This document shows, in pieces, positions 1 through 33,934 of a DNA stretch of 36,638 bases. The notes beneath the pieces are model-generated. The model did no database searches and was not told where the DNA came from. It saw nothing but the letters and a program-made list of their open reading frames with translations. Made by a program: the position numbers and the translations under genes. The first letter of the stretch is position 1. Every line of letters begins with the position of its first letter. This DNA comes from a virus (Duplodnaviria; Heunggongvirae; Uroviricota; Caudoviricetes), in the IMG/VR virus record IMGVR_UViG_2541047702_000001; one strand, 5' to 3'.

Positions 1-17
1 AATCATTCCCACTCAAT
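1..17. repeat. attL core, 17-bp direct repeat AATCATTCCCACTCAAT
   Basis: Exact copy of 36622-36638. Reverse complement ATTGAGTGGGAATGATT reads I-E-W-E-stop, which I recall as the C-terminus of GMP synthase GuaA (from memory, unverified). Confidence 0.8.
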
Positions 18-104
18 TATTTACGGCATGCATAACCAATTGACTGGTAACAACTTTCTGTAACCTGATTTTCACCATACCGTTTTATATACCGTCACCG
101 GAAA

Positions 105-602
105 TCAGTGCCACGATTTTTGCTTCTTCAGTGAATCGTATTGCTGCTCGCAGAATTCCCCTGCGATACGATACTTTTCAGCCTCAGTTGCTGTTGCGTT
201 GTAAACTCGGTTGCTTTCTTCAAGCATGTCGGCGAGCACACCGATGACCTTGCTGGCTGGCGTGCCAGGGGGGAAAGATCCGGTATAGTGTTCGGCGAGC
301 CGCCTGGTTTTGTCAAGCTCGGCGCGCATGCTGTCAGCAGCGGAATTAGCATACTCAGCATCAGCACGCGCCGCATCGATACGGGATTGTGCTTCACGTT
401 CAATTTGTGTTTTCTCCTGCTCACGCTGTGACCTTAACTTATCATCAGCCTGTTTCTGATCTTCCTTCGCCTGCGCATACCCGGCATCGTACTGACGGAT
501 GCCGTGCACATTCCAGGCAACAACTCCTGATATGACCAGAACAGCAAGCATCGCCACGATAAGTAACTGTTTACGGTATGCTTTTACAAATGCCCAGATC
601 AT
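105..602 (-). CDS. Rz: i-spanin (Rz-like): N-terminal transmembrane helix followed by charged coiled-coil region
   Basis: 165 aa; TM segment [18 protein letters not shown] then highly charged periplasmic domain; start ATG overlaps endolysin stop (ATGA at 599-602); last gene of lysis cassette. Confidence 0.7.
128..376 (-). CDS. Rz1: o-spanin (Rz1-like) outer-membrane lipoprotein, embedded in +1 frame inside Rz
   Basis: Internal ATG at 376 gives [17 protein letters not shown]... with lipobox LTAC and Pro-rich mature part; fully nested in the Rz ORF as in lambda Rz/Rz1. Confidence 0.6.
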   Translation of the reverse strand: MRRVLMLSMLIPLLTACAPSLTKPGGSPNTIPDLSPLARQPARSSVCSPTCLKKATEFTTQQQLRLKSIVSQGNSASSNTIH

Positions 603-21983: not shown

Positions 21984-22060
21984 GTGGCATTAGCTCAGTT
22001 GGACAGAGCAACCGCCTTCTAAGCGGTTGGTCGCAGGTTCGAATCCTGCATGCCACGCCA
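21984..22060 (+). tRNA. tRNA-Arg, anticodon UCU (reads AGA)
   Basis: Manual cloverleaf: acceptor GTGGCAT/ATGCCAC, D-stem GCTC/GAGC, anticodon stem ACCGC/GCGGT with loop CTTCTAA, T-stem GCAGG/CCTGC with loop TTCGAAT, discriminator G and encoded CCA; 77 nt. Confidence 0.85.
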
Positions 22061-33685: not shown

Positions 33686-33934
33686 ATGAAAGGTGCATTA
33701 GGTAAGAAGGAACTCCTGGCGGTGGTGCCACTGTCATGGAGCACTATCGACCGTATGGAGCGCGCAGGGGAATTTCCTAAACGCTGGTATATCACCGACA
33801 AACGCTGCGCATGGAACCGTGACGAAGTTGAGCGTTGGCTTGATGAACGTCAGGCAGCAAGCCCGGCAGAGTTCCAGGGTAAAAAACCTCCTGTTCAGCA
33901 ACGTGTATATCGTCCTGTGAGCAACGCTGCATGA
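33686..33934 (+). CDS. AlpA-family HTH protein (excisionase / transcriptional regulator)
   Basis: 82 aa; motif LSWSTIDRMERAGEFPKRWYITDKRCAWNRDEVERWL typical of AlpA/Xis-like proteins; AGAGAGG ribosome-binding site. Confidence 0.6.
   Translation: MKGALGKKELLAVVPLSWSTIDRMERAGEFPKRWYITDKRCAWNRDEVERWLDERQAASPAEFQGKKPPVQQRVYRPVSNAA

What the first reader, a model, noticed from the sequence alone, without database searches (positions are those of the whole stretch)
1..17. Integration site: 17-bp att core likely equals the 3-prime end of guaA
Identical 17-mers at both ends delimit the prophage exactly. The reverse complement ATTGAGTGGGAATGA encodes I-E-W-E-stop, which I recall as the C-terminus of GMP synthase, so the phage appears to integrate into the end of guaA and supply a replacement 3-prime end. 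A minus-strand terminator (36541-36577) is then positioned to terminate guaA transcripts before the integrase. Integration into a protein-coding gene is less usual for a P4-type integrase, which typically targets tRNA genes.
Basis: partly seen in the sequence, partly recalled or inferred. Interest (0 to 1): 0.45.

Follow-up and report, generated by a model that had tools for sequence, protein, structure and literature searches.

The report
Prophage attachment site in guaA end
The identical 17-base sequences at the two ends of this window are the attachment-site core of a phiV10/epsilon15-type E. coli prophage inserted into the last codons of the GMP synthase gene guaA, a correct reading of a site that was already published and shown by experiment.

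Summary
Observation confirmed. AATCATTCCCACTCAAT occurs only at 1-17 and 36622-36638, with 0 matches expected by chance. Its reverse complement reads I-E-W-E-stop plus two bases.

The window is a Uetakevirus prophage, about 97% identical to phiV10. No host flank is in the window, and no complete genome in the collection holds this exact prophage, so the flanks come from relatives:
- In 547 of 5426 complete E. coli genomes the same int-core junction abuts guaA (60 of 60 sampled records).
- guaA lies on the minus strand and its stop codon falls at window-equivalent 36624-36626.
- The other side is yfgI.
- Empty K-12 attB and phiV10 attP share exactly these 17 bp.
- GuaA keeps its length and C-terminus in a lysogen.

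A strong minus-strand terminator (36544-36577) lies between guaA and int.

The integrase has P4-like architecture but is only 28% identical to P4 Int. Homologues of 43-54% identity sit about 300 bp downstream of guaA in alpha-, beta- and gammaproteobacteria. This matches the published 'epsilon15 cluster' of guaA-targeting integrases.

The same 17-mer was shown by PCR and Sanger sequencing to be attP/attB of phage vB_EcoP_ZX5 (PMC9782041), which also reports it for phiV10 and epsilon15.

Verdict: correct and already known; low interest.

Side observation: the phage terminator matches E. coli's own guaA/yfgI terminator at 25 of 27 bases.

The parts
1..17 (.). Core copy at attL (the yfgI side). 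In lysogens it is flanked on the left by host DNA and on the right by the phage P' arm.
   Evidence: Host flank with yfgI seen in L003 and L005.
36622..36638 (.). Core copy at attR (the guaA side). On the minus strand, 36638-36624 are the last four guaA codons (I-E-W-E) plus the TGA stop; 36623-36622 are the first two bases after the stop.
   Evidence: (the guaA CDS ends at window-equivalent 36624).
36544..36577 (-). Intrinsic terminator AACCCTCTGT-TTTT-ACAGAGGGTT followed by TTTGTTTTTA. In the prophage it is the first terminator downstream of guaA. In the circular phage it lies downstream of the lysis genes and upstream of int.
   Evidence: Annotated as a rho-independent terminator in the phiV10 and epsilon15 records. 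Conserved in five Uetakevirus attP regions.
36588..36601 (-). Imperfect inverted copy of the core. In the minus-strand transcript it pairs with 36624-36636 to form a hairpin that encloses the guaA stop codon.
   Evidence: In five phages the hairpin is -16.5 to -20.5 kcal/mol on the minus strand against -6.9 to -13.5 on the plus strand. The equivalent segment is annotated as a putative RNase III site in the epsilon15 record.
35181..36431 (-). int, a 416-aa tyrosine integrase with a GTG start, 190 nt from the core.
   Evidence: Pfam Arm-DNA-bind_3, Phage_int_M and Phage_integrase. 99% identical to phiV10 Int, 87% to epsilon15 Int and 28% to P4 Int, with R238, H335, R338, H361 and Y370 aligned.
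36488..36497 (+). Candidate arm-type Int-binding site ATACCGTCAC (P arm).
   Evidence: 11 matches at up to 1 mismatch against 1.4 expected, 6 of them clustered around attP. The same site is annotated 'integrase' binding in the epsilon15 record.
36458..36467 (-). Candidate arm-type site ATACCGTCAT (one mismatch, inverted; P arm).
36253..36262 (+). Candidate arm-type site ATACCGTCAC inside the 5' part of int.
36163..36172 (+). Candidate arm-type site ATACCGTCAC inside int.
35910..35919 (-). Exact ATACCGTCAC inside int. It is the most distal copy and its role is uncertain.
89..98 (+). Candidate arm-type site ATACCGTCAC (P' arm), preceded by the half-site ATACCGTTTT at 79-88.
   Evidence: invariant in all six attP regions aligned.
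33686..33934 (+). 82-aa AlpA-family helix-turn-helix protein, a candidate excisionase (recombination directionality factor).
   Evidence: Pfam Phage_AlpA, E = 3e-5. The role is inferred by analogy with P4 Vis and AlpA; it was not tested.
105..602 (-). Rz-like spanin (DUF2514), the last gene of the late/lysis operon. It ends 88 nt from the core.

Best explanation
The two 17-mers are the common core of attL and attR of a phiV10/epsilon15-type (Uetakevirus) prophage. The phage tyrosine integrase (35181-36431, minus strand) recombined the phage attP with the chromosomal attB.

- attP: the core lies 190 nt upstream of int and is flanked by ATACCGTCAC arm-type sites.
- attB: the last 15 nt of guaA plus the next 2 nt.

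The crossover falls inside a block that is identical in phage and host. The guaA reading frame is therefore rebuilt exactly, ending in ...IEWE-stop. What changes is everything downstream of the stop. guaA loses its own terminator, which it shares with the convergent gene yfgI. It gains phage sequence instead: a hairpin that includes the stop codon, then a strong intrinsic terminator, then int.

The phage late (lysis) operon ends at the other junction and now runs into the host terminator.

Shown here or in published work:
- the repeat;
- the junction anatomy in relatives;
- the intact GuaA C-terminus;
- the terminator structure;
- integration of ZX5 at this 17-mer by experiment.

Inferred:
- Int binds the ATACCGTCAC motifs.
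- Strand exchange lies around GAGTGGGA, as proposed for the related GIsul2 integrase.
- The AlpA-family protein acts as excisionase.
- The terminator actually shields int from guaA read-through.
For: - Repeat is unique and non-random.
- Window is about 97% identical to phiV10, HEMP4, phiv142-3 and ZX5.
- int-core-guaA junction is present in 547 of 5426 complete E. coli genomes, and guaA is under the match in 60 of 60 evenly sampled records.
- guaA, on the minus strand, ends at the core in CE10. yfgI is on the other side.
- The empty K-12 site has one core between the convergent genes yfgI and guaA.
- attB and attP are identical over exactly 17 bp.
- GuaA is 525 aa with the same C-terminus in lysogen and non-lysogen.
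- Integrase domains and catalytic residues are present. Int is 99% identical to that of the viable phage phiV10.
- Arm-type motif is enriched around attP and annotated likewise in the epsilon15 record.
- Terminator confirmed.
- Published experiment: PCR and Sanger sequencing of attB, attL and attR for ZX5 with the same 17-mer, 190 bp 5' of int, and no growth effect of lysogeny. The same paper states that the 17-mer is the attP of phiV10 and epsilon15 (PMC9782041).
- TL-2011b is inserted in guaA (PMC3293862).
- The 'epsilon15 cluster' of integrases targets the guaA 3' flank (PMC8138268).
- 29 Int homologues of 43-54% identity lie 290-325 bp from the guaA end in other Proteobacteria.
Against: - The window contains no host flank.
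- No complete E. coli genome in the collection carries this exact prophage; the best has 93% coverage at 97.5% identity. The junctions are therefore inferred from close relatives.
- No sigma-70-like promoter for int was found between the terminator and the int start, so how int is expressed, and whether read-through matters, is open.
- Int binding to the ATACCGTCAC motifs, the crossover position and the excisionase assignment are untested.
Confidence: 0.95

Rival explanations
1. The terminator at 36544-36577 is primarily the phage's own late-operon terminator, stopping lysis-gene transcripts before int in the circular genome. Terminating guaA is a by-product of the geometry rather than an adaptation. 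This refines the best explanation and does not replace it.
For: In attP the order on the minus strand is Rz - core - terminator - int. The hairpin is conserved in phages of Escherichia, Salmonella and Enterobacter.
Against: The two roles are not exclusive. After integration each transcription unit that crosses the core still meets a terminator in the right orientation: guaA meets the phage one and the late operon meets the host one. This is what a site selected to leave guaA expression intact would look like.
Confidence: 0.5
2. The 17-bp repeats are a target-site duplication made by a transposase on insertion.
For: Direct repeats flanking an inserted element are also what transposition produces.
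Against: The free phage genomes already carry one copy. The empty site carries one copy. The same sequence is used in 547 genomes. A tyrosine integrase with arm-type sites sits beside it. No transposase was noted: the gene content matches phiV10-type phages.
Confidence: 0.01
3. The phage entered by RecA-dependent homologous recombination through a captured guaA fragment.
For: The phage carries host-identical sequence.
Against: The identity is only 17 bp, which from general knowledge is too short for efficient RecA recombination. A related guaA-targeting integrase, that of GIsul2, integrates at this attB in recA-deficient E. coli DH5alpha (PMC9376610).
Confidence: 0.01
4. The repeat is a chance match or an artefact of how the window was cut.
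For: The window boundaries coincide exactly with the repeats, so they were probably chosen by a prophage-boundary tool.
Against: 0 matches expected by chance. Independent junction sequences in hundreds of genomes agree.
Confidence: 0.01

Closest known systems
attP/attB of Uetakevirus phages vB_EcoP_ZX5, phiV10 and epsilon15 (integration at the 3' end of guaA)
   Same: Identical 17-bp core (attgagtgggaatgatt) and the same 190-nt distance to int. Int is 99% identical to phiV10 Int and 87% to epsilon15 Int. The terminator, the core-containing hairpin and the ATACCGTCAC arm motifs are the same.
   Different: Nothing at the attachment site. The prophage is 36.6 kb against about 39 kb, and it differs in accessory and early genes.
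Satellite phage P4 integrase and its attP (target: the leuX tRNA gene, from general knowledge)
   Same: Same three-domain Int architecture. The catalytic R-H-R-H-Y residues align. The core lies 150-190 bp upstream of int, and arm repeats lie on both sides and inside the 5' end of int.
   Different: Only 28% identity. The target is a protein-coding gene, not a tRNA. The literature places it in a separate 'epsilon15 cluster', distinct from the 'P4 cluster' (PMC8138268).
GIsul2 and other genomic islands, ICEs and IMEs inserted at the guaA 3' end (GIsul2, CMGI-3)
   Same: Same target codons. The proposed GIsul2 core GAGTGGGA lies inside this 17-mer (PMC9376610). Int homologues of 43-54% identity sit about 300 bp downstream of guaA in many Proteobacteria, in the same orientation.
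   Different: Those are islands or conjugative or mobilizable elements, not phages. Their arms and cargo are unrelated.
Lambdoid phage 21 and element e14 integrating inside icd (from general knowledge; not examined here)
   Same: The element carries a copy of the 3' end of a housekeeping protein gene, so the gene stays intact after insertion.
   Different: In my recollection those elements replace a much longer, non-identical segment and change some codons. Here only 15 coding bases are involved and they are identical.

Membership tests
Uetakevirus (phiV10/epsilon15-type) guaA integration module | Core sequence ATTGAGTGGGAATGATT shared by attP and attB | tested here: met
   Exact match at both window ends, in phiV10 and epsilon15 attP and in K-12 attB. 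The published core is identical.
Uetakevirus (phiV10/epsilon15-type) guaA integration module | Integrase orthologous to phiV10/epsilon15 Int, with the gene adjacent to attP | tested here: met
   99% and 87% identity over 416 aa. The core is 190 nt from the int start.
Uetakevirus (phiV10/epsilon15-type) guaA integration module | Prophage flanked by guaA on the int side and by downstream host DNA on the lysis side | tested here: met
   Shown in relatives only: CE10, 20Y000092, GPEC1186 and 60 of 60 sampled records. The source genome's flanks were not available.
Uetakevirus (phiV10/epsilon15-type) guaA integration module | Genome-wide similarity to phiV10-type podophages | tested here: met
   86-97% coverage at about 97% identity to HEMP4, phiv142-3, ZX5 and phiV10.
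Arm-binding tyrosine integrases (lambda/P4 type) | N-terminal arm-binding domain, core-binding domain and catalytic domain with R-H-R-H-Y | tested here: met
   Pfam PF13356, PF22022 and PF00589. R238, H335, R338, H361 and Y370 align with P4 Int.
Arm-binding tyrosine integrases (lambda/P4 type) | Repeated arm-type sites on both sides of the core | tested here: met
   ATACCGTCAC: 11 matches at up to 1 mismatch against 1.4 expected, 6 of them within about 730 bp of the core on both arms. This shows a sequence pattern only; binding was not tested.
P4 cluster proper (P4, Sf6 and related integrases) | Integration into or next to a tRNA gene | tested here: not met
   The target is guaA. Identity to P4 Int is only 28%. 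The literature puts epsilon15 Int in a separate guaA-targeting cluster.
'epsilon15 cluster' of guaA-targeting integrases (Smyshlyaev et al. 2021) | Homologous integrases consistently located at the guaA 3' flank across taxa | tested here: met
   Of 120 species loci with the 17-mer, 33 hold an Int homologue. In 29 of them it is 43-54% identical, with its N-terminus 290-325 bp from the guaA end and the same orientation.
Site-specific recombination mechanism | Position of strand exchange (overlap region) and dependence on Int, IHF and an excisionase | not testable with these tools
   Only leads are available: the GAGTGGGA core proposed for GIsul2, the predicted IHF sites in the epsilon15 record and the AlpA-family ORF.

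The most novel reading that the evidence does not exclude
The phage-borne terminator is not just any terminator. It matches E. coli's own guaA/yfgI terminator at 25 of 27 bases, with the same 8-bp CCCTCTGT/ACAGAGGG stem. The phage version is conserved in Uetakeviruses of three host genera. The host version is a single-copy feature of essentially all E. coli, and it is absent from the 120 other species examined. Integration therefore swaps like for like. This could reflect an old exchange of DNA between a phage attP arm and the chromosomal site, or selection for a mimic. Separately, lysogens gain a conserved, strand-specific RNA hairpin that encloses the guaA stop codon. That hairpin could alter guaA mRNA stability or translation termination.
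Probability: 0.2. Interest if true: 0.3.

Novelty: already known. Interest (0 to 1): 0.1.

Why it matters
It fixes the exact prophage boundaries and shows that the insertion leaves an essential purine-biosynthesis gene intact. That is useful for annotation, for curing or engineering the prophage, and for reading guaA as a shared insertion hotspot.

About 10% of complete E. coli genomes carry a phage of this family at the site, and related integrases use the same codons across Proteobacteria.

It adds nothing conceptually new. The site, its sequence and the guaA-targeting integrase clade are all published.

Tried and rejected
- **Source genome.** Searched for it among complete E. coli genomes to read the true flanks. 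The best match has 93% coverage at 97.5% identity, so it is not present. GPEC1186 matches the left end at 99.9% but carries a 41.7-kb tandem pair, so it is not this prophage.
- **Kropinski et al. 2007 (PMC2698709).** The paper is not held in the library, so its content is cited only through PMC8138268 and the annotation of the epsilon15 record.
- **int promoter.** Scanned the region between the terminator and the int start; no sigma-70-like site was found.
- **Rfam.** Nothing in 36300-36638 approaches a gathering score.
- **Extent of host/phage similarity.** Tested whether it goes beyond the terminator hairpin. It does not: local alignment returns only the 27-nt block.
- **Origin of the terminator similarity.** Tried to resolve it from other hosts' attL flanks in IMG/VR. 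Most are E. coli. L221 shares E. coli's 22-nt spacer but has a different terminator, and only 165 nt of its host flank are available. This was inconclusive.
- **GIsul2 Int.** A tblastn search of plasmids, listed with evenly spread rows, did not single it out, so the identity to GIsul2 Int was not measured.
- **Rival readings.** Transposon target duplication, RecA recombination and chance were considered and rejected (see the rival explanations).

Full report
**1. The observation**

Window 1-17 and 36622-36638 both read AATCATTCCCACTCAAT. With up to two mismatches allowed these are the only two matches on either strand, and none is expected in 100 dinucleotide-preserving shuffles. Nothing else aligns between the two ends. 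The reverse complement is ATT GAG TGG GAA TGA TT, which reads I-E-W-E-stop plus two bases.

**2. What the window is**

The first 25 kb match Escherichia phages at about 97% identity, with these coverages:
- HEMP4, 97%;
- phiv142-3, 90%;
- vB_EcoP_ZX5, 87%;
- phiV10, 86%.

They match Salmonella phage epsilon15 and Enterobacter phage Tyrion at 77-81%. All are podophages of the genus Uetakevirus.

The right end carries a 416-aa integrase gene on the minus strand (35181-36431). The left end carries the Rz-like spanin that closes the lysis cassette (105-602, minus strand).

**3. Host flanks**

The window has no host DNA. No complete E. coli genome in the collection holds this exact prophage; the best has 93% coverage at 97.5% identity. 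I therefore used close relatives.

- The 639 bases at the right end occur in 547 of 5426 complete E. coli genomes, almost always once per genome. In 60 of 60 records sampled evenly down the ranking, the annotated feature at the end of the match is guaA.
- In strain CE10, guaA lies on the minus strand immediately to the right. Its CDS ends at the base equivalent to window 36624, so TCA at 36624-36626 is the stop codon.
- On the left side the host genes are yfgI, yfgH, yfgG and pdeF.
- In K-12, which has no prophage, yfgI and guaA converge and a single copy of the 17-mer sits at the guaA stop.
- Comparing K-12 attB with phiV10 attP, the bases on both sides of the 17-mer differ: a against t on one side and g against t on the other. 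The identity block is exactly 17 bp.
- GuaA is 525 aa and ends in KPPATIEWE in both K-12 and the CE10 lysogen. The only difference is an unrelated I155V polymorphism.

**4. Anatomy of the site**

Joining the two window ends reconstructs an attP that is colinear with those of phiV10, epsilon15, Tyrion, PAT1 and SPN1S. Reading on the minus strand, which is the sense of guaA, of int and of the late operon, the order is:

- Rz stop;
- a P' arm with ATACCGTTTT-ATACCGTCAC (79-98);
- the core;
- an imperfect inverted copy of the core (36588-36601);
- an intrinsic terminator with a 10-bp stem at 36577-36554 and tail TTTGTTTTTA (-15.9 kcal/mol);
- two more ATACCGTCAC-type motifs (36488-36497 and 36458-36467);
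- the GTG start of int at 36431.

Further exact copies of the motif lie inside int at 36253, 36163 and 35910. ATACCGTCAC gives 11 matches at up to one mismatch against 1.4 expected, and six of them cluster here. Four of these positions are annotated as integrase-binding sites in the epsilon15 record. That record also predicts IHF sites and calls the core-containing hairpin an RNase III site.

The layout resembles P4, where the core lies about 150 bp upstream of int and arm repeats lie on both sides and inside the 5' end of int.

**5. The integrase**

Pfam finds Arm-DNA-bind_3, Phage_int_M and Phage_integrase domains.

| Compared with | Identity |
|---|---|
| phiV10 Int | 99% |
| epsilon15 Int | 87% |
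| P4 Int (over 409 residues) | 28% |

In the P4 alignment, R238, H335, R338, H361 and Y370 line up with the catalytic residues.

An 82-aa AlpA-family protein (33686-33934) is a plausible excisionase by analogy with P4 Vis. That role is inferred, not tested.

**6. Why guaA, and how unusual is it**

About 105 of them are true guaA ends (KPPATIEWE* or KPPGTIEWE*). They come from Alpha-, Beta- and Gammaproteobacteria, Firmicutes, Cyanobacteria and some Archaea. The target is therefore one of the most conserved short coding sequences available.

In 33 of these loci an Int homologue is present. In 29 it is 43-54% identical, with its N-terminus 290-325 bp from the guaA end and in the same orientation as here.

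This reproduces what Smyshlyaev et al. describe as the 'epsilon15 cluster' of integrases. [quoted passage not shown] GIsul2 uses the same codons, with the proposed core GAGTGGGA, and integrates into E. coli DH5alpha attB without RecA (PMC9376610).

It does not hold for this clade.

**7. Prior knowledge**

The ZX5 paper reports attP 'attgagtgggaatgatt' located 190 bp 5' of int and an identical attB at the 3' end of guaA. It verified this by PCR and Sanger sequencing of attB, attL and attR, and found no effect of lysogeny on growth. It also states that the same sequence was already established as the attP of phiV10 and epsilon15 (PMC9782041). Phage TL-2011b was likewise reported as inserted in guaA (PMC3293862). 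The finding is therefore correct and already known.

**8. Mechanism**

- *Shown:* the recombination joints, the conserved reading frame and the terminator structure.
- *Established for close relatives by experiment:* integration at this 17-mer.
- *Inferred:* Int monomers bridge arm-type ATACCGTCAC sites and core-type sites, probably with IHF. They exchange strands within the identical block, plausibly around GAGTGGGA, to give attL and attR. The AlpA-family protein would direct excision.

One consequence follows directly from the geometry. Both the host and the phage carry a minus-strand terminator just past the core. After recombination, guaA transcripts meet the phage terminator before int, and late-operon transcripts leaving the prophage meet the host terminator. 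In the free phage, the same phage terminator separates the lysis genes from int. It is therefore not dedicated to guaA. Whether it actually protects int from read-through was not tested, and no sigma-70-like int promoter was found.

**9. Side observations**

- *Terminator similarity.* The host and phage terminators share AACCCTCTGTTnnTACAGAGGGTTTTT at 25 of 27 positions, and 0 of 2000 shuffles reach that score. The similarity does not extend beyond the hairpin. The host version is a single-copy feature in 5404 of 5426 E. coli genomes. It is absent from the 120 other species' guaA loci. The phage version is conserved across Uetakeviruses of three host genera. Because the sequence is a palindrome the match is less improbable than it looks, and I could not settle its origin.
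- *Strand-specific hairpin.* The hairpin that pairs the core with 36588-36601 is 5-10 kcal/mol more stable in the minus-strand RNA than in the plus-strand RNA in all five phages. The K-12 guaA 3' region lacks this hairpin. This is consistent with G-U pairs and an RNA-level role. No Rfam family matches.

**10. Verdict**

The site is already known, and interest is low.

Noticed in passing
window 36550-36577; K-12 locus L006 5905-5936: The phage terminator and E. coli's own bidirectional yfgI/guaA terminator share the same 8-bp stem and flanks (25 of 27 bases; 0 of 2000 shuffles reach this). The host copy is single-copy in 5404 of 5426 E. coli genomes and absent from 120 other species' guaA loci. 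The phage copy is conserved in Uetakeviruses of Escherichia, Salmonella and Enterobacter.
   Followed up: partly
window 36588-36636, minus strand: A conserved RNA hairpin pairs the att core, including the guaA stop codon, with an imperfect inverted copy in the P arm. It is much more stable on the minus-strand transcript than on the plus strand in five phages. It exists at attP and attR but not at attB. The epsilon15 record annotates the equivalent as a putative RNase III site.
   Followed up: partly
NZ_CM142789.1 (E. coli GPEC1186) 4396000-4480000; loci L002, L004, L005: Two tandem copies of a 41.7-kb phiV10-like prophage sit at this site: the same protein accessions recur at a 41,749-bp offset. 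An attP-type junction (int - core - Rz) lies between them at about 4437605. This is either a true tandem dilysogen or an assembly artefact. The guaA-side junction lay just outside the stretch fetched.
   Followed up: partly
NZ_CP079771.1 (41,027-bp 'plasmid' of an E. coli duck isolate): This record encodes an integrase 98.8% identical to the window's. It is probably the circular, excised form of a phage of this family, deposited as a plasmid.
   Followed up: no
IMG/VR loci L154, L174, L222, L238, L138, L241, L249, L178, L248: In these prophage contigs the attL core does not abut host DNA. It abuts the int-side arm of a different guaA-targeting element, the same arm that follows guaA in Citrobacter L026 and Tatumella L016/L028, where an Int 53% identical is present. 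These are tandem arrays of unrelated elements sharing one att site.
   Followed up: partly
genome loci L025 (Halopseudomonas), L032 (Methylophaga), L062 (Candidimonas), L077 (Massilia): The sequence after the guaA stop is identical over the available stretch (47 nt in L032, 60 nt in the others) in four unrelated genera. Where the locus extends far enough, an Int 54% identical to the window's follows. This is one broad-host element, possibly GIsul2-like, and it was not identified.
   Followed up: no
IMG/VR loci L226, L251: An attP variant in which the terminator loop reads TTTT instead of AAAA while the stem is unchanged (a flipped loop).
   Followed up: no
IMG/VR locus L221, 1-165: This attL flank shares E. 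coli's 22-nt spacer next to the core but has a different terminator hairpin (CCTCCGGC-TAT-GCCGGAGG). The host is unidentified.
   Followed up: partly
window 21984-22060 (+): A tRNA-Arg (anticodon TCT) gene lies inside the prophage, between the terminase and portal genes. The GPEC1186 relative has one too.
   Followed up: no
genome locus L036 (labelled Gordonia sp. IEGM753): Its guaA C-terminus and downstream flank are of the Pseudomonas type, nearly identical to L046, L057 and L063. This suggests a contaminating contig or a mislabelled record.
   Followed up: no
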